Shown in pieces: positions 410 to 40,282 of a DNA stretch of 40,282 nucleotides (position 1 is its first letter; every line of letters starts with the position of its first letter). The stretch is from Escherichia phage P1723. The stretch lies in sequence record MT465573, one strand, 5' to 3'. A program made the translations under genes and the position numbers. The notes beneath the pieces are model-generated. The model saw nothing but the letters and a program-made list of their open reading frames with translations. It was not told where the DNA came from and did not search any database.

Positions 410-529
410 CGTCAACACGACGACACGCTGCGATAGCGTCTCTAAGTGGTCTGATAGGTTGACGGGTTCGAGTCCACACGATAGAACGCCTAAGGAACTA
501 CGCAGAGCCACCTAACGAAACAAAATGTG

Positions 530-565
530 TTGACATGCAGAACGACCTGATGTAACTTAGATAGC
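530..565 (+). promoter_or_regulatory. Early host-RNAP promoter (A-type): TTGACA-N17-TAACTT
   Basis: TTGACA 530-535, 17-nt spacer, TAACTT 553-558; one of three near-identical copies. Confidence 0.6.
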
Positions 566-736
566 AAGCAGTAAGGGTCGCTACTGGCTCCCACAGTAGC
601 AGTCAGGAAGGGAACTAAATCCCAACAGCCGACGACTCGGCGGTTAGCATAGCGTACCATCTGAGGGTGGAAACAATATGAGATGCACGAGTCGCTTCCT
701 AAGGAGCTAATCTTACAGGGCAGGTAAACAAGCTGC

Positions 737-772
737 TTGACATACAGAACGAAACGCAGTAACTTAGATAGC
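737..772 (+). promoter_or_regulatory. Early host-RNAP promoter (A-type): TTGACA-N17-TAACTT
   Basis: TTGACA 737-742, 17-nt spacer, TAACTT 760-765; downstream TAACTTAGATAGCAAG identical to the copy at 553. Confidence 0.6.
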
Positions 773-898
773 AAGTAACACAGCAGTACAGCGAGACCGA
801 ACTGATAAACTACATGGTCTATGCGGTGCCTCAGCGCGAATATCTGAGGTGAACGATTAGCACGATACCTAAGGTGCTACGCTAAGTGAACAAATAGC

Positions 899-30523: not shown

Positions 30524-33500
30524 ATGGCTAAATATGACAAAACTATCCCTAACCAATACGATGGACTGATTCGTCAAGCTGCCGATGCCAACGGGGTCTC
30601 TTATGACCTCCTTCGACACTTAACGTTCAATGAGTCCAGCTTTAACGCTAACGCTAAGTCACCTACAGGACCTAAGGGTATCATGCAGATGACTGCTGGT
30701 ACTGGTCGAGCTATGGGACTCAATGTCTTCAAAGAGGACAACCCGGCTGATGACCGTTACAACCCTGAGAAAGCAATCCCGGCTGCTGCTAAGTTGCTTG
30801 CTGGCTTCGTTAAGAAGTCTAATGGCGATGAGCTGCGAGCCGCCCTGATGTATAACGTTGGGGAGGGCCCGACAGGTATGCCACAGATTGAGGCCTACGA
30901 TAAGCAGGACTACGGTAGCATTGGTGATGAGGGTCGCCTGTACATCCGTAAACTGGTAGGTTCCGCTAAGTCCCTGCGCTCAGAAGCCATTGAGAAGTTC
31001 GGTGACTTCGCAAAGGGAATCTTTGAGGTCGAAGCCCCAGCCTCTAAGGTAACTCGTGGGGCTCCCGGTCCAGAGACTGCAAGCGTCAACATGGACACGT
31101 CTAACCTTAAGTATGACCAATTGAACGAACGTACTGCTGCCAATACGTGGGCAGTACAGAACGACCAGCCAGAGGAGAACTATAAGCCTCAGGGAGCTGA
31201 CAAAGGGTTATTCTATAAGACTGGTGACGTGGCTAAGGTTGAGGTACAGAACTCCGCTCTAGCTACGATGGCTGATGCAGCCCTTGGCGACAACGGGTAT
31301 GACGTTTGGTCTGCAACTATTACACCATCCAAGTGGAACAGCTACACGTTCACTCCTGATGATATCCAAAAGATTCGTGAGAGTGGTCTTCGTGCTGAGT
31401 ACGCTCAGTCTGTCCTTGGGTCCAACGCTGAGACTCTCGATGAGATGATTAAGCTGGCTAAGGAACGTCAGGACCGTCAGGACTCTGTAGCCGATGCTGG
31501 TATGGGTGCCCACCTCGTGGGTGCTCTCGCTGGTGCTGCTGTAGACCCTGTGAGCTACATCCCGATTGCTGGTGCTGCTTCCAAGGGTATCTCCCTAGGT
31601 CGTCGTATGGTGACTGTAGGTACTCAAGCTGGTGCTCTGAACGTAGCCTCTGAAGTTTTACGTGTGGGTGTTGGTGGTGGACATGCAGATTACATGATGG
31701 CGGCTGGTGGTGGCTTACTGTTCGGTGCTGGTCTGACTGGTGTGTTACATCGTGCCAACCCTCGTGAAGCTGAGAGCGTCCTTGCGGCAACAGCTCGCGC
31801 TGAGTCTCGTGATGCAGCCATGCGTGGCCTACCGGATAACTCTGCTGTGAGTACCGAGGGTCTGGACTTTAAGACCTCTCCGAATGGCTCTCAATATGCA
31901 ACCCTCGACAGTGGCGAAGTAGTCCTGCCGGATGGTCAAGTGCTGTCAACCAGTAACCCCCTGAACCCCAATAGTGCCTCTCAGTTTGCTTCGGTAGACC
32001 CTGAGGTGACTAAGGGCTCGATGGGTGTACGTATGGGTTCCATGACCGATATCTCCCTGCACCTGTCTCGTTCTGCCGACGATGAAGTCCGTGGTGTTGC
32101 CTATGACCTCCTGCGTTCCACTACAGGTTACGTTAAAGGCGGCTCTGGTAAGTCCGGTACGGTTGCCTCTGACGTGGCTGAGCGTCTGCACTACACCGAT
32201 ACGTCCGACCTAACGGCTATTGAGCAGTTCACACGTGATGCAATCAAAGACCCTGAGTGGACTATGGGTGCTAACCGTGGGGATGCTCTGGCACGTGAGA
32301 CCGTGGTGCGTCGTGCAGTGGAAGCACAGGAAGATGGTATTGGCGTCTCTAAGTTGACCAAGGGTGAATCCAAGCTGCGTGATGAAATCTTCCGGTTCAC
32401 CACCAGCAAGGAAGACGCTATGTCTAACCCTGCGATGTTCGGTAACCCTAAAGCAATCCCTGTGATGAACAAGACGAAACTTAGCGGCAAATACTTCCCG
32501 GTGGCTTATGTACCTGAGAAGGTGGCGGCATTCCGTAATGTCTTTGGGAACTCCGTTGAGGATGCTCAAGGTGCCATGCAGCGCCACTTCTTGGCTGACT
32601 ATGCGTCCAACCCTAACACGAAGTCTGTGGTAGACGAGATGGTAGCCGCTAAGAACGGTCTGGATAGCCCAGCCGCAGTTACACCTGAGATGGTTGAGAA
32701 GTGGGCCAACGACAAGGCTTTCGGTATCGTAAACGGTGAGTTCACTACCAACCTTGCACTGGACGATATCGCCTCTGCGTCCAACTCAATGAACCTCGGG
32801 AAGAATAACTTCCTTGAGAGCCGTCATGGGTTCAGTATGGGATTTAAGTCTCAACTGCCGGATGGTCAGATGTTCTCCCTGAACGACCTGCGTAGCTTTG
32901 ACGCTAACAAGCTGCTGCGTAACTATGCCCGTAGAACCAATGGTGACATTGCGATTCACTCAACGGGTCAGACTACTCAGGACTTACTGGATAAGATTAC
33001 CGCTATCCGTGAGCGAGCCAAGAGTGACCCTTCCGGTAAGCTGAAGCAGGACGCTAACGCCCTCGAAGATACCGTGAAGTTACTCACTGGTCGTGCTCGT
33101 CGTGACCCTAACGGCGCTGTGGACATGGCTATGGGTGTTCTTAAAGACCTGAGCTTTGTCGCTAAGAACGCCTACATGGGTCTTCTGAACCTGACGGAGA
33201 TTGGTGGTATGATTGCCAAGGGTAACGTTCGTGCTCTGTTCCACGGTATTCCTGTTGTTCGTGACATGATGCGTTCCACCAAGGCTGTCTCCGGGACTGA
33301 CCTTCAGAAGCTGGAGTATGGCCTGATGGGTCGTGAAGTGGACAATATGATTCGCCCTCAACGGGCAGACCTCATTCAGTCTCTTCGTGACAACTCTGGT
33401 ATGGGTTCATTCGGTGCAAACGCTCTGGGTTCCCTTAAGTTCGGGACTCAGGAGATTGCCGCTGCGTGGCCTATGAGTAAGCTGCTACAAGGCACCACGA

Positions 33501-34486
33501 ACTACCTGCTTAGCGCTGCACGTCAGGGTCTCATTGGGAACCTTATTGAACACGCTGCGACGGGTAAGTCCTCCAAGTGGCTCAATGAGAACTTCCTGAA
33601 GTCTGCCAGCATCACGCCTGAGCAGTCCAAGGGTATCATTCAGTTCCTCAAAGACCACGCCAAGGTGGACGCTAACGGTAAGTGGACCTTCCCAGACCAA
33701 CACGCGATGAGCCTTGACCCTCGGGCTATGGACTTGTGGCGGATGGCTGATAAGGTTGCAGATGAGACCATGCTCCGACCATCCAAGATTAATGCACAGA
33801 ACGTTAAACAGTTAGGCCCGATTGTTGGCGCTGCGTTGCAGTTCAAAACGTTCGTCATTAAGTCCCTCAATGGTAAGACACTACGTACTTACTATCAGGC
33901 CACTCGCGATGGTCGTGCGATGGACGCTGCATTGTCCACAGGTATCTCCGGGATGCTTGCTGGTTCGTTCTACGTGATGCAGTCCCACATGAAAGCTGCT
34001 GGTCTCCCTGAGAACCAACGTGAGGCTTATCTCTTCAAGGCCTTAACGCCTGAGATGGTTGCCTACGCTGCGGCCTCCCGAAGCTCTATCACTGGTGCGC
34101 CGTTAGGTGTTGCAGATATGCTTCTGGGGCCAATTGGACTGACTCCAAGCCAGTACATGCGTACCACTATCAGTCCTAAGGATGCACCACAGCGAGACCC
34201 TAACAAGGCTTCCTCTGGTCGTTCCGGTACGGCTGAGCTGATGGGTGCTATTGGTCAACAGTTCCCTGTGGCTAACTACGTTGGCTCTACGGTGTCTCTC
34301 GGTCAGAACCTCTGGAACCTCGGAGGTGCCAATGGCCCTCGCGACTCCACGGAGTTCACTACAGGTGTCTATCAGAATATGAAGGAAGTTCTCCCGAACG
34401 ACCCGATTACTCAGAGACTACTTCTGGGTGCTTTCGAAGAGCACATCTACACAACCGAGCGACCTAAGCGTTCAGAGCGCTGGTAA
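30524..34486 (+). CDS. 16: Internal virion protein D with N-terminal lytic transglycosylase domain, gene 16
   Basis: 1320 aa; N-terminus GVSYDLLR...ES.FN..AKS.TGP.G.MQ.T is the transglycosylase motif region of T7 gp16; later segments (FGNPKAI, ILTGRARR, MDLWR.ADKVADE.MLRP) align with T7 gp16. Confidence 0.95.
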   Translation: MAKYDKTIPNQYDGLIRQAADANGVSYDLLRHLTFNESSFNANAKSPTGPKGIMQMTAGTGRAMGLNVFKEDNPADDRYNPEKAIPAAAKLLAGFVKKSNGDELRAALMYNVGEGPTGMPQIEAYDKQDYGSIGDEGRLYIRKLVGSAKSLRSEAIEKFGDFAKGIFEVEAPASKVTRGAPGPETASVNMDTSNLKYDQLNERTAANTWAVQNDQPEENYKPQGADKGLFYKTGDVAKVEVQNSALATMADAALGDNGYDVWSATITPSKWNSYTFTPDDIQKIRESGLRAEYAQSVLGSNAETLDEMIKLAKERQDRQDSVADAGMGAHLVGALAGAAVDPVSYIPIAGAASKGISLGRRMVTVGTQAGALNVASEVLRVGVGGGHADYMMAAGGGLLFGAGLTGVLHRANPREAESVLAATARAESRDAAMRGLPDNSAVSTEGLDFKTSPNGSQYATLDSGEVVLPDGQVLSTSNPLNPNSASQFASVDPEVTKGSMGVRMGSMTDISLHLSRSADDEVRGVAYDLLRSTTGYVKGGSGKSGTVASDVAERLHYTDTSDLTAIEQFTRDAIKDPEWTMGANRGDALARETVVRRAVEAQEDGIGVSKLTKGESKLRDEIFRFTTSKEDAMSNPAMFGNPKAIPVMNKTKLSGKYFPVAYVPEKVAAFRNVFGNSVEDAQGAMQRHFLADYASNPNTKSVVDEMVAAKNGLDSPAAVTPEMVEKWANDKAFGIVNGEFTTNLALDDIASASNSMNLGKNNFLESRHGFSMGFKSQLPDGQMFSLNDLRSFDANKLLRNYARRTNGDIAIHSTGQTTQDLLDKITAIRERAKSDPSGKLKQDANALEDTVKLLTGRARRDPNGAVDMAMGVLKDLSFVAKNAYMGLLNLTEIGGMIAKGNVRALFHGIPVVRDMMRSTKAVSGTDLQKLEYGLMGREVDNMIRPQRADLIQSLRDNSGMGSFGANALGSLKFGTQEIAAAWPMSKLLQGTTNYLLSAARQGLIGNLIEHAATGKSSKWLNENFLKSASITPEQSKGIIQFLKDHAKVDANGKWTFPDQHAMSLDPRAMDLWRMADKVADETMLRPSKINAQNVKQLGPIVGAALQFKTFVIKSLNGKTLRTYYQATRDGRAMDAALSTGISGMLAGSFYVMQSHMKAAGLPENQREAYLFKALTPEMVAYAAASRSSITGAPLGVADMLLGPIGLTPSQYMRTTISPKDAPQRDPNKASSGRSGTAELMGAIGQQFPVANYVGSTVSLGQNLWNLGGANGPRDSTEFTTGVYQNMKEVLPNDPITQRLLLGAFEEHIYTTERPKRSERW

Positions 34487-34487
34487 T

Positions 34488-34510
34488 CATTAACCCACAC
34501 TATAGGGAGA
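34488..34510 (+). promoter_or_regulatory. Phage RNAP promoter (phi17-like), copy 1
   Basis: TCATTAACCCACACTATAGGGAGAGG, +1 at 34505. Confidence 0.8.
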
Positions 34511-34550
34511 GGCAATCACGTCCTCCCTCTAGTTTTCATAAGGAGGCCAC

Positions 34551-34793
34551 ATGGCAAACGTCATTAAGACAGTTTATACGTACCCATTAGATGGCACCAC
34601 GACTGACTTTGCGATTCCCTTTGAGTACCTGTCACGTAAGTTCGTGGTGGTAACGCTCATTGGTCAAGACCGTAAAGAGCTGGTTGTTGTGACCGATTAT
34701 CGCTTCGCTACCCGCAACCTTATCTCTACGACTAAGGCATGGGGACCAGCCGATAACTATCAACAGATTGAGCTACACAACCGAGCGACCTAA
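34551..34793 (+). CDS. Truncated duplicate of the tail fiber N-terminus (gp17 residues 1-74 plus 6 aa), created by the tandem duplication
   Basis: Identical to the first 74 codons of gene 17, then runs through the duplication junction into LHNRAT and a TAA; has its own promoter and AAGGAGG RBS. Confidence 0.6.
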   Translation: MANVIKTVYTYPLDGTTTDFAIPFEYLSRKFVVVTLIGQDRKELVVVTDYRFATRNLISTTKAWGPADNYQQIELHNRAT

Positions 34794-34813
34794 GCGTTCA
34801 GAGCGCTGGTAAT

Positions 34814-34836
34814 CATTAACCCACACTATAGGGAGA
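34814..34836 (+). promoter_or_regulatory. Phage RNAP promoter (phi17-like), copy 2
   Basis: Identical to copy 1; +1 at 34831. Confidence 0.8.
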
Positions 34837-34876
34837 GGCAATCACGTCCTCCCTCTAGTTTTCATAAGGAGGCCAC

Positions 34877-36754
34877 ATGGCAAACGTCATTAAGACAGTT
34901 TATACGTACCCATTAGATGGCACCACGACTGACTTTGCGATTCCCTTTGAGTACCTGTCACGTAAGTTCGTGGTGGTAACGCTCATTGGTCAAGACCGTA
35001 AAGAGCTGGTTGTTGTGACCGATTATCGCTTCGCTACCCGCAACCTTATCTCTACGACTAAGGCATGGGGACCAGCCGATAACTATCAACAGATTGAGAT
35101 TCGTCGATACACTTCTGCAAGTGAACGTCTGGTTGACTTCAGTGATGGTTCCATCCTGCGAGCTACCGACCTTAACGTATCTCAGATTCAGACCCTGCAC
35201 GTTGCTGAAGAAGCGCGAGACCTGACCGCTGATACCATTGGCGTTAACAACGATGGCAACCTTGATGGTCGTGGTCGTCGTATCGTTAACGTGGCAGATG
35301 GTGTGGACGCTGGTGACGTTGTTACCGTAGGCCAGATGAACCGTTGGTCTGGTAGTGCTGCCGACAGCGCCAATAAAGCCAAGGTGTCCGAGACCAACGC
35401 CAAGACCTCTGAGACAAACTCAAAGGCTTCCGAGCTGTTAGCCCAGAAGTGGGCTGAGAACCCTAAAGGAACACCTGTGGTCTCCAGTCAGTATTCCGCT
35501 AAGCATTGGGCGTTGACCTCTGAGGATAGCGCTAATGCGTCTGCAACCTCTGCGGGTAACTCTCAGGCACAAGTAGCGAACGCTAAGACACAGGCTGACC
35601 GTGCTGGTGGTTACGCCAATGACGCTATGGGTTACCGCGATGCAGCCAACACGTCTGCTCAACAGGCCGCTGTATCTGAGGGCAACGCTGCGACATCTGC
35701 AAGTAACGCAAAGACTGAATCCGATAAGCTAATTCAGTTTAACACTCTGGTTGACCGGATTAACGGAGTGGCTGTACGTCAGGTTGGTGAGTTTGAGGTC
35801 CACAACTCTCGTACTTACGCTAAGCCGGGTACAGTGTATGGGGATGGTCAACTGCTGAACCGCAACCAGTTCCCTGCACTAGTAGCTGAGTTACTGGCAG
35901 GACACCTCCCGGTTGTCTCTGACTCCGAATGGCTGGCTGACCCCGGTAAACGTGGTTGCTATACCCTAGGTAACGGTACGACCACTTTCCGTGTACCAGA
36001 CCTCAACGGTGTCTATGCGGGTTCCATTAAGGCTCCTGTGTTCCGTGGTGACGCTGGGTTTACTGTAGGTGATGTTCAGAAGTCAGCTCTACCAAACATT
36101 GAGGGTCTGATTGCACTTGCCGATAATGAGCTGGCCTCCAGTGCCTCTGGTGCATTCTACAACGCTGGGCGCTCCAACAAAGGTGCAACTAACGATACCG
36201 GCGGTGCTCAGTTAGGTTTCGACGCGTCACTGTGGAACGAAATCTACAAGAAGGACACCAACGAAGCCCGAATGAACTCCGTGGTAATCGTATGGGTCAT
36301 CCGTACTCACGGGGTGGTGAACAATCCGGGTTCTGTAGATGCCGCTGTGTTGTCTTCTCGTGTCGAGCAGGTTTATACCGAACTGCTTACACGTATGGTT
36401 GCTAATGAGAACCTCCAGAAGTCTGGACAGAAGTTCCTTCGCCGAGTGTTTAGCGACCGCACGTCTCAGGGGCAACTTTCGACTGGAAGAACAGTGACTT
36501 GCTCTGAGGATATTCTCAACAAGATGCTAGTAATTGGCGCACACACCGATAGCCAAAACCCAAACTCTCAGATATATCGTTGTAGCCCGTTCCTCCAGCC
36601 GAACACTGCTGACCGAATGCACCTCACTCTATCTAACTGGTCGTACACCTTAGAGTTCCCTGCGGCGAATCAAGTTAAACTAGTAGCGGCTACAGGTTCT
36701 GGAGTACAGGCAATCAACTATATTGACGTAGTGTGCGACTACCCACAAACGTAA
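34877..36754 (+). CDS. 17: Tail fiber protein, gene 17 (T7-like N-terminal domain, divergent distal region)
   Basis: 625 aa; residues 1-150 (MANVIKTV..FEYL.RKFVVVTLIG.DRK...DYRFATR...KAWGPAD, GSILRA.DLNV.QIQT.HVAEEARDLT.DTIGVNNDG.LD.RGRRIVN) match T7 gp17; distal part differs and contains a tail-collar-like motif. Confidence 0.95.
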   Translation: MANVIKTVYTYPLDGTTTDFAIPFEYLSRKFVVVTLIGQDRKELVVVTDYRFATRNLISTTKAWGPADNYQQIEIRRYTSASERLVDFSDGSILRATDLNVSQIQTLHVAEEARDLTADTIGVNNDGNLDGRGRRIVNVADGVDAGDVVTVGQMNRWSGSAADSANKAKVSETNAKTSETNSKASELLAQKWAENPKGTPVVSSQYSAKHWALTSEDSANASATSAGNSQAQVANAKTQADRAGGYANDAMGYRDAANTSAQQAAVSEGNAATSASNAKTESDKLIQFNTLVDRINGVAVRQVGEFEVHNSRTYAKPGTVYGDGQLLNRNQFPALVAELLAGHLPVVSDSEWLADPGKRGCYTLGNGTTTFRVPDLNGVYAGSIKAPVFRGDAGFTVGDVQKSALPNIEGLIALADNELASSASGAFYNAGRSNKGATNDTGGAQLGFDASLWNEIYKKDTNEARMNSVVIVWVIRTHGVVNNPGSVDAAVLSSRVEQVYTELLTRMVANENLQKSGQKFLRRVFSDRTSQGQLSTGRTVTCSEDILNKMLVIGAHTDSQNPNSQIYRCSPFLQPNTADRMHLTLSNWSYTLEFPAANQVKLVAATGSGVQAINYIDVVCDYPQT

Positions 36755-40092: not shown

Positions 40093-40282
40093 TCTCAAAG
40101 ATACAACTCCCAAAGTTCCCCCATAGCCCTCTTTAAGTTCACCTTCGGTGGCCCTTCCCCTTTGGTTACTCTTTAAGTGACACCTTTGGTGGTTCGTTTG
40201 GTTCTCCTGAGGCGGTGTTGAGACCCTTTGGTGAGACATTAGGGAGACCATTTGGTGACATTTGGTTATGCCTCAGTCCCTA
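40093..40282. repeat. Putative terminal-repeat / genome-end region with CCTTTGGT-type short repeats
   Basis: TCTCAAAGATACAACTCCCAAAGTTCCCCCATAGCCCTCTTTAAG resembles the T3/T7 left-end sequence; CCTTTGGT/CCCTTTAAG repeats continue across the window end into positions 1-80. Confidence 0.35.

What the first reader, a model, noticed from the sequence alone, without database searches (positions are those of the whole stretch)
34447..35098. Perfect 326-bp tandem duplication spanning the gene 16 end, phi17 promoter and 5' of the tail fiber gene
Positions 34447-34772 and 34773-35098 are identical base for base. The unit carries the last 40 nt of gene 16, a complete phage promoter, the RBS and the first 222 nt of gene 17. 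The result is two tandem phi17 promoters and an 80-codon ORF encoding the tail-fiber N-terminus ahead of the intact gene. A zero-divergence duplication is either very recent (a known route of adaptation in T7-like phages) or an assembly artefact.
Basis: seen in the sequence. Interest (0 to 1): 0.8.

Follow-up and report, generated by a model that had tools for sequence, protein, structure and literature searches.

The report
Perfect 326-bp duplication, probably assembly artefact
The deposited genome of the T7-like Escherichia phage P1723 contains an exact 326-base head-to-tail duplication carrying a phage promoter and the start of the tail-fibre gene; it is more likely a genome-finishing error than biology, and if real it would be one more case of a promoter duplication already seen in evolved T7.

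Summary
Window 34447-34772 and 34773-35098 are identical base for base, exactly two copies, and form the only repeat of 40 nt or more in the 40,282-nt window. The unit holds the last 40 nt of the gene-16 homologue, a full T3/T7-type promoter, the RBS and the first 222 nt (74 codons) of the tail-fibre gene. This gives two promoters and an 80-codon ORF ahead of the intact 625-codon gene.

The window is the GenBank genome of Escherichia phage P1723 (Foetvirus). Its closest relatives, SRT7 and a Logan contig from SRR27322254, are single-copy. None of 36 other T7-like loci is duplicated here.

Sequence alone cannot decide whether the duplication exists in the virion. I lean towards an assembly or finishing artefact (about 0.6):
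- The junction has zero microhomology.
- The record has a collapsed terminal repeat, so it is an unfinished short-read-style assembly.
- The only multi-copy k-mers in the unit are in the promoter, where small-k assemblers break. A mis-closed gap there would duplicate the promoter and spare both genes.
- Internal repeat artefacts are documented for T7-like assemblies.

The rival (about 0.33) is a real, very recent promoter-bearing duplication like the 154-bp phi13 duplication in evolved T7. Either way novelty is low. Reads or PCR would decide.

The parts
34447..34772 (+). Copy 1 of the 326-bp unit. It is continuous with the upstream gene-16 homologue and so completes that gene.
   Evidence: identical to copy 2
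34773..35098 (+). Copy 2 of the 326-bp unit. It is continuous with the rest of the tail-fibre gene and so begins the intact gene.
34765..34780 (+). Novel junction ...CAGATTGAG|CTACACAACC... at 34772|34773. It has no microhomology, and the sequence is absent from SRT7, from the Logan relative, from IMG/VR and from the JGI metagenome collection.
30524..34486 (+). Gene-16 homologue: internal virion protein with an SLT transglycosylase domain, 1320 aa (QKM75970.1). Its last 40 nt lie in the unit.
34488..34510 (+). Phage-RNAP promoter, copy 1 (-17 to +6; +1 = G34505). It matches the genome's consensus late promoter.
   Evidence: 11 matches in the window, 10 in the single-copy genome
34814..34836 (+). 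Phage-RNAP promoter, copy 2 (+1 = G34831).
34551..34793 (+). 80-codon ORF: fibre residues 1-74 plus LHNRAT and a stop. It has its own RBS at 34540-34546. GenBank annotates it as 'non-contractile tail fiber protein' (QKM75971.1). It covers only positions 1-69 of the 157-position PF03906 profile.
34877..36754 (+). Intact tail-fibre gene, 625 aa (QKM75972.1). Its N-terminal 154 residues align to T7 gp17 residues 1-154.
40093..40281 (+). The single copy of the direct terminal repeat kept in the record (context). The window starts 1 nt after the position where the left repeat would end, so the terminal repeat is collapsed.

Best explanation
The duplication is most likely an assembly or finishing artefact of the deposited P1723 genome. 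Two sequence ends that overlapped by 326 bp were joined end to end instead of being merged. These could have been the ends of a circularly assembled contig, or the two sides of a gap at the phi17 promoter closed by gap-filling or manual concatenation. That produces two base-identical copies, an arbitrary junction, an apparent second promoter and a spurious 80-codon 'tail fiber' ORF. Shown: the perfect identity, the absence of junction microhomology, the collapsed terminal repeat, single copy in the relatives, and the promoter being the only multi-copy k-mer stretch in the unit. Inferred: the actual assembly history.
For: (1) The two copies are 326/326 identical and the junction has 0 nt of microhomology. 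No repeat of 12 nt or more touches either breakpoint, and there is no hairpin or composition anomaly. This is what concatenation gives. T7 deletions are classically tied to short direct repeats (Studier 1979 and Kong & Masker 1994, as cited in PMC5630979). (2) The record is not a finished genome. It has one terminal-repeat copy where SRT7 has 175 bp at both ends, and in a relative's contig window base 40282 is followed directly by base 1, so the window is a collapsed circle that was opened. (3) For T7-like phages, PMC10438801 documents that short-read assemblies delete the terminal repeat, are opened mid-genome and need re-orientation. It also reports that 7 of 10 phages carried internal ~79-bp repeats, most of which Sanger sequencing refuted. 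(4) In the single-copy genome, the only multi-copy exact k-mers inside the unit are in the promoter (34486-34512, up to 25 nt), and all exact repeats of 23 nt or more genome-wide are the ten phage promoters. Assemblers with k of 25 or less branch exactly here. A badly closed gap here would yield a duplication that contains the promoter and leaves both genes intact. (5) The 80-aa ORF was deposited as a 'tail fiber protein', which suggests automatic annotation without curation of this locus. (6) The duplication is absent from SRT7, from the Logan relative and from 36 other T7-like loci. At most 3 of 519 phage records show a second copy of this region. (7) An independent assembly of a relative breaks 51 nt from the left breakpoint, a weak hint that this spot is assembly-sensitive.
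Against: The length, 326 bp, is not a usual k-mer overlap (55/77/79/99/127), so the most common form of the artefact does not fit and a gap-closing or overlap-assembler history has to be assumed. The duplication is of the viable kind: 42% of random 326-bp duplications would spare all genes and only 7.7% would include a whole promoter. A real promoter-bearing duplication has been seen in T7. The rest of the local consensus is clean, with no indels against SRT7 over 7.6 kb. No reads are available, so nothing here proves an artefact.
Confidence: 0.6

Rival explanations
1. The duplication is real and very recent in the P1723 isolate. An illegitimate (non-homologous) recombination or template-switch event duplicated 326 bp spanning the gene 16/17 boundary. 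Both genes stay intact. A second late promoter sits 326 bp upstream of the normal one, adding transcripts of the fibre gene and the genes downstream of it. The RBS and first 74 codons are also repeated, so an 80-aa N-terminal fibre fragment is made as a by-product. To persist against homologous loss, the duplication would need positive selection (for example for more fibre) or a very recent founder effect at plaque purification.
For: Both breakpoints lie in different genes, so nothing is disrupted. A complete consensus promoter and RBS lie inside the unit. There is a T7 precedent: a 154-bp tandem duplication including promoter phi13 reached consensus in an evolved T7 line (PMC3737178). There are natural precedents in T7-group isolates, namely 1-5 copies of an 80-bp repeat downstream of a phage promoter in the fPS Yersinia phages (PMC5923468), and selected tail-fibre tandem duplications in phage EfV12-phi1 (PMC6365445). 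The same genome holds an older, diverged duplication or insertion bearing a sigma70 early promoter, so promoter-region rearrangements do occur in this lineage. The length of 326 bp is not a k-mer size. P1723's fibre tip differs from SRT7's, so fibre-related adaptation is plausible.
Against: The junction has zero microhomology. A 326-bp perfect direct repeat should be lost readily by T7-type recombination (inference from the direct-repeat deletion literature cited). The 80-aa fragment carries half of the tail-docking domain (docking between gp11 and gp12, PMC6702177) and is at best useless. The duplication is not seen in any relative or in any of 36 + 519 comparison genomes. The record shows other signs of unfinished assembly.
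Confidence: 0.33
2. The duplication exists only in a sub-population of the sequenced lysate. The assembler traversed the resulting graph loop and wrote the two-copy form into the consensus.
For: Tandem duplications in phage lysates are often heterogeneous in copy number (PMC6365445; fPS phages). Such a repeat is expected to be unstable.
Against: There is no direct evidence, and the window alone cannot separate this from the other two explanations.
Confidence: 0.07

Closest known systems
Internal repeat artefacts in short-read assemblies of T7-like phages (przondovirus HYPPA study, PMC10438801)
   Same: The study concerns the same phage subfamily. Its assemblies also lose the terminal repeat, and they contain perfect internal repeats that relatives lack. 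Sanger sequencing showed most of those repeats to be artefacts.
   Different: Those repeats were about 79 bp, a k-mer-like size, and lay near or within the terminal-repeat region. This one is 326 bp and lies 5 kb from the terminal repeat, so a different route (gap closing or contig concatenation) has to be assumed.
154-bp tandem duplication containing promoter phi13 in the evolved T7:LME_2000 line (Cecchini et al. 2013, PMC3737178)
   Same: It is a tandem duplication in a T7-group genome that includes a complete late phage promoter just upstream of a structural gene. The authors thought it likely to have important regulatory effects.
   Different: That duplication was intergenic, arose in a rearranged genome under long laboratory selection, and was called from population sequencing. 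Here the unit also repeats coding sequence (the gene-16 tail and 74 fibre codons), the phage is an environmental isolate, and no read support is available.
Copy-number-variable 80-bp repeat downstream of a phage promoter in the fPS Yersinia podoviruses (PMC5923468)
   Same: It is a natural tandem repeat variation next to a phage promoter in T7-group isolates.
   Different: It is shorter, non-coding, present in 1-5 copies across several isolates, and located elsewhere in the genome.
1.8-kb in-frame tandem duplications in the tail-fibre gene of Enterococcus phage EfV12-phi1 (PMC6365445)
   Same: It is a recent, perfect tandem duplication involving a tail-fibre gene. It was detected as a coverage spike and confirmed by PCR and MinION reads, which are the tests needed here.
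   Different: It lies in frame inside the gene and lengthens the fibre, in a myovirus under coevolution. Here the fibre protein is unchanged and the duplicated part is the promoter and 5' end.

Membership tests
Recent tandem segmental duplication (real genomic event) | Two head-to-tail copies with one novel junction, and a single copy in close relatives | tested here: met
   (2.0 copies, 100% identical); SRT7 and Logan SRR27322254 are single-copy through both breakpoints
Recent tandem segmental duplication (real genomic event) | Physical presence in virion DNA: reads or amplicons spanning both copies, and doubled depth | not testable with these tools
   No reads are available. P1723's unique proteins occur only in NCBI-derived sources, not in Logan or ENA. 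The junction is absent from IMG/VR and the JGI metagenome collection, but the parental sequence is nearly absent there too.
Recent tandem segmental duplication (real genomic event) | Short homology at the breakpoints (typical of slippage or direct-repeat-mediated events in T7, not strictly defining) | tested here: not met
   There is 0 nt of microhomology, and no repeat in register within +-40 nt
Assembly/finishing artefact (overlapping ends concatenated) | Copies are 100% identical, with arbitrary breakpoints that lack homology | tested here: met
Assembly/finishing artefact (overlapping ends concatenated) | The record shows a collapsed, circularised assembly that was opened or joined afterwards | tested here: met
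   Only one terminal-repeat copy is present, and window end and start are contiguous in a relative's contig
Assembly/finishing artefact (overlapping ends concatenated) | Repeat length equals an assembler k-mer or overlap length | tested here: inconclusive
   326 bp is not a standard SPAdes or MEGAHIT k. It is compatible with overlap assemblers or gap-closers, but the pipeline used is unknown.
Assembly/finishing artefact (overlapping ends concatenated) | A graph-breaking repeat lies inside the duplicated segment | tested here: met
   The promoter at 34486-34512 is the only multi-copy k-mer stretch in the unit, shared up to 25 nt with other promoters
Assembly/finishing artefact (overlapping ends concatenated) | Single-copy read depth and no junction-spanning reads | not testable with these tools
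   no reads are available
T7/T3-type phage RNA-polymerase promoter | 23-bp conserved sequence (-17 to +6) recurring upstream of late genes in the same genome | tested here: met
   The pattern matches 10 sites in the single-copy genome, and the phi17 copy is consensus through GGGAGA. Activity was not tested.
PF03906 T7 tail-fibre N-terminal (tail-docking) domain, for the 80-aa ORF | Complete domain (about 150 residues) able to dock on the tail | tested here: not met
   The ORF matches profile positions 1-69 of 157 only, while the full gene matches 1-149. T7 gp17 residues 1-154 align to the full domain.

The most novel reading that the evidence does not exclude
The duplication is real and maintained by selection in an environmental isolate. 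The extra late promoter raises fibre (and downstream) expression after P1723 acquired a new receptor-binding tip. This would be a natural counterpart of the promoter duplications seen only in laboratory-evolved T7. The co-expressed 74-residue fibre fragment could possibly modulate fibre loading on the tail.
Probability: 0.15. Interest if true: 0.45.

Novelty: not a real feature. Interest (0 to 1): 0.2.

Why it matters
P1723 is the exemplar genome of the ICTV species Foetvirus P1723. If the duplication is an artefact, the reference sequence is 326 bp too long and lacks one terminal repeat. It also carries a spurious 'tail fiber protein' entry (QKM75971.1) that is already propagated to UniRef. 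If the duplication is real, it would be a natural example of gene-expression tuning by promoter duplication in a T7-like phage. That would be modestly interesting for phage evolution and engineering, but it is a known mechanism.

Tried and rejected
(1) Independent occurrences of the junction. An exact 30-mer search in IMG/VR and the JGI metagenome collection found nothing. The parental 30-mer is found only in SRT7, so the absence is uninformative. (2) Exact-protein look-ups of the 80-aa ORF and the 625-aa fibre in the gene-position collection found nothing on record. P1723's reads do not seem to be in Logan or ENA. (3) E. coli genomes have no match to the unit, so it is not prophage-derived. 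(4) I searched for microhomology, nearby repeats, hairpins and composition anomalies at the breakpoints and found none. (5) I looked for terminators or sigma70 promoters in the unit and found none. The leader fold is not significant, z = -0.77. (6) I looked for recurrent stand-alone truncated fibre ORFs. The protein search gave only the query and two contig-end fragments. (7) I looked for tandem duplication at the 16/17 junction in other T7-like contigs and found 0 of 36. (8) Rfam over the whole window gave no hit. (9) I tried to retrieve the far end of the Logan relative's contig, and the 41,191-bp relative, via gp13, gp14, gp11, the holin and cluster members. (10) Literature on P1723 or SRT7 sequencing methods: none held. 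(11) An adaptor-protein reading of the 80-aa ORF (SP6/K1-5-type stand-alone N-terminal-domain proteins, recalled from memory) was rejected, because the ORF has only half of the domain and is 100% identical to the gene's own 5' end.
Full report
OBSERVATION. Positions 34447-34772 and 34773-35098 are identical base for base. This is seen by direct reading, by the repeat finder, by Tandem Repeats Finder (period 326, 2.0 copies, 100% matches, no indels, score 1304) and by string comparison. The repeat cannot be extended by one base on either side. It is the only direct repeat of 40 nt or more in the whole 40,282-nt window. Chance is not an issue.

ANATOMY. The upstream gene, 30524..34486 (1320 aa), has an SLT transglycosylase domain and is the homologue of T7 gp16. 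The unit starts 40 nt before its stop codon. Next comes a 23-bp phage-polymerase promoter, CATTAACCCACACTATAGGGAGA (34488-34510, +1 at G34505). It matches the pattern found at ten sites in the single-copy genome. From my own knowledge of the T3 and T7 consensus sequences, it is T3-like upstream and T7-like at position -2. A 46-nt leader follows, then AAGGAGG (34540-34546) and the fibre ATG at 34551. The unit ends after fibre codon 74.

There are two identical promoters 326 bp apart. There is an 80-codon ORF (34551..34793), made of fibre residues 1-74 plus LHNRAT read out of frame from the gene-16 tail. The intact 625-codon fibre gene follows at 34877..36754. The 80-aa product matches only positions 1-69 of the 157-position Pfam profile for the T7 fibre N-terminal domain, whereas the full protein matches 1-149. 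The full N-terminus aligns to T7 gp17 residues 1-154, which are resolved on the tail in several PDB entries. T7 fibres dock between the gp11 and gp12 'fiber dock' domains (PMC6702177). The fragment therefore carries about half of the docking domain. No terminator, sigma70 promoter or significant leader structure lies in the unit.

WHAT THE WINDOW IS. Exact protein look-up identifies the window as the GenBank genome of Escherichia phage P1723 (40,282 bp). The 80-aa ORF is deposited as QKM75971.1 and the fibre as QKM75972.1, both named 'non-contractile tail fiber protein'. P1723 is the isolate of the species Foetvirus P1723 in Studiervirinae. Its only close deposited relative is phage SRT7, at about 97-98% identity.

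COMPARISON WITH RELATIVES. SRT7 is colinear and single-copy. The match spans 1675 nt of SRT7 against 2001 nt of the window. The alignment runs straight through both parental breakpoints. SRT7 differs from the unit at two positions, and both P1723 copies share the same base at each. A second relative, a 39,501-bp Logan contig from run SRR27322254, is also single-copy. Apart from the duplication and a replaced fibre C-terminal tip, there is not one indel between P1723 and SRT7 over 7.6 kb. Among 519 phage records matching the unit, at most three have a second place. None of 36 T7-like fibre loci fetched from IMG/VR has a tandem duplication across the gene 16/17 boundary. The novel junction is absent from IMG/VR and from the JGI metagenome collection. 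The parental sequence is found only in SRT7 there, so that absence says little.

REAL OR ARTEFACT: THE EVIDENCE. Four observations bear on this.

First, the junction has no microhomology. The flanking bases differ on both sides. No k-mer of 12 nt or more at either breakpoint recurs elsewhere. The two breakpoint neighbourhoods share nothing in register. There are no inverted repeats or composition shifts. Concatenation artefacts give arbitrary junctions. In T7, deletion mutants have classically been linked to short direct repeats (Studier 1979 and Kong & Masker 1994, as cited in PMC5630979).

Second, the record is not a finished T7-type genome. SRT7 carries a 175-bp terminal repeat at both ends, while the window has one copy (40093-40281) and begins one base after the point where the left copy would end. 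In the Logan relative, window base 40282 is followed directly by base 1. The window is therefore a collapsed circle that was opened. For T7-like phages this is the documented behaviour of short-read assemblies, which also need re-orientation. Seven of ten phages in that study carried internal ~79-bp repeats, most of which Sanger sequencing showed to be artefacts (PMC10438801).

Third, I quantified the features that look biological. In the de-duplicated genome, 42% of random 326-bp tandem duplications leave every gene intact, and 7.7% contain a whole phage promoter. On its face this favours a real, selected event. However, the promoter is also the only stretch of the unit whose k-mers are multi-copy in the genome (34486-34512, up to 25 nt shared with another promoter), and all exact repeats of 23 nt or more genome-wide are the ten phage promoters. 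An assembler working at k of 25 or less branches exactly there. A gap at the promoter that is then closed or joined with overlapping ends yields a perfect duplication that contains the promoter. Because the promoter is intergenic, such a duplication also spares both genes. Both 'biological-looking' features are thus expected under the artefact too. This step is inference, because the pipeline used is unknown.

Fourth, if the duplication is real, a 326-bp perfect direct repeat should be lost easily by the efficient recombination of T7-type phages (inference). It would also express half of a docking domain from a strong promoter and RBS. It would therefore need selection, or a very recent founder event, to be the consensus.

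THE CASE FOR A REAL DUPLICATION. The length of 326 bp is not a usual k-mer overlap. The local consensus is otherwise clean. There is a direct precedent: a 154-bp tandem duplication including promoter phi13 became the consensus in an evolved T7 line (PMC3737178). Natural T7-group isolates vary in copy number of an 80-bp repeat next to a promoter (PMC5923468). Tail-fibre tandem duplications were selected in another phage and confirmed by coverage, PCR and long reads (PMC6365445). P1723 itself holds an older, diverged duplication or insertion bearing a sigma70 promoter in its early region.

VERDICT. The sequence alone cannot decide whether the duplication exists in the virion. Weighing the points above, I put an assembly or finishing artefact at about 0.6, a real very recent promoter-bearing duplication at about 0.33, and a sub-population variant written into the consensus at about 0.07.

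If real, the likely mechanism is as follows. An illegitimate, homology-independent recombination or template switch duplicated the 16/17 boundary. The extra consensus late promoter adds transcripts of the fibre gene and the genes downstream of it. The 80-aa fragment is a by-product. Only the sequence architecture of this mechanism is shown here; promoter activity, dosage effect and selection are all inferred.

In either case novelty is low. It is either not a real feature or a new instance of a known kind of event. The practical value is curation of a species-exemplar genome and of a spurious protein entry.

UNEXPLAINED. The Logan relative's contig ends 51 nt upstream of P1723's left breakpoint. 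A random break would fall that close about 0.3% of the time. I could not retrieve the other end of that contig. I therefore cannot tell whether this is an arbitrary cut of a circular unitig or a sign of local heterogeneity or assembly difficulty.

Noticed in passing
window 517-781 (repeats at 530-568 and 737-775; insert 569-736): Two 39-nt direct repeats, 85% identical and 207 nt apart, each hold a sigma70-type TTGACAT early-promoter segment. They flank a segment of about 168 nt that is absent from both SRT7 and the Logan relative, each of which has one copy. The first P1723 copy carries the Logan allele and the second carries the SRT7 allele. This looks like unequal recombination between two parental variants that added an extra early promoter. 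A third, more diverged copy lies at 886-930.
   Followed up: partly
window 1 and 40093-40282: The record holds only one copy of the ~189-nt direct terminal repeat, at the right end. It is opened 1 nt past the repeat end as defined in SRT7 (and, from memory, in T7): ...CCCT|A then TCTGTTGG. The deposited genome is therefore about 189 nt short of the physical genome at the left end. The 1-nt offset would fit an assembler break at the physical terminus caused by an adapter's leading A, but that is speculation.
   Followed up: partly
L005:1 (Logan SRR27322254_28075, 39,501 bp) = window 34396: An independent assembly of a close relative has its contig end 51 nt upstream of P1723's left duplication breakpoint, although the relative is single-copy there. 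It may be coincidence (about 0.3%) or a locally assembly-sensitive spot. The other contig end could not be fetched.
   Followed up: partly
window ~36386-36745 (fibre C-terminus): The last ~120 codons of the tail-fibre gene have no nucleotide similarity to SRT7's (625 vs 611 aa). The shaft is only 88% identical to the Logan relative's 633-aa fibre, and a 422-aa fibre variant exists on a 41,191-bp ENA/Logan contig. This points to receptor-binding tip swapping within a 97-99% identical backbone.
   Followed up: no
window 33750-34250 (gene-16 homologue, C-terminal part): There is a local SNP hot spot against SRT7: 34 and 18 differences in two adjacent 250-nt bins, against 1-8 in most of the other bins. 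It lies just upstream of the duplication and may be a small recombinant patch.
   Followed up: no
L006, L008 (Logan SRR8381869 contigs): A fragmented assembly from run SRR8381869 holds a phage 99.2-99.6% identical to P1723 in gp14/gp15 and in the holin-terminase region, but with a different fibre tip. P1723-like phages are therefore present in other public runs.
   Followed up: partly
whole window: P1723 is absent from the INPHARED-derived 'phages' collection used here (the best hit is SRT7 at 97-98%), although it is a GenBank record and an ICTV species exemplar. It may have been filtered out by its record title or completeness label.
   Followed up: no
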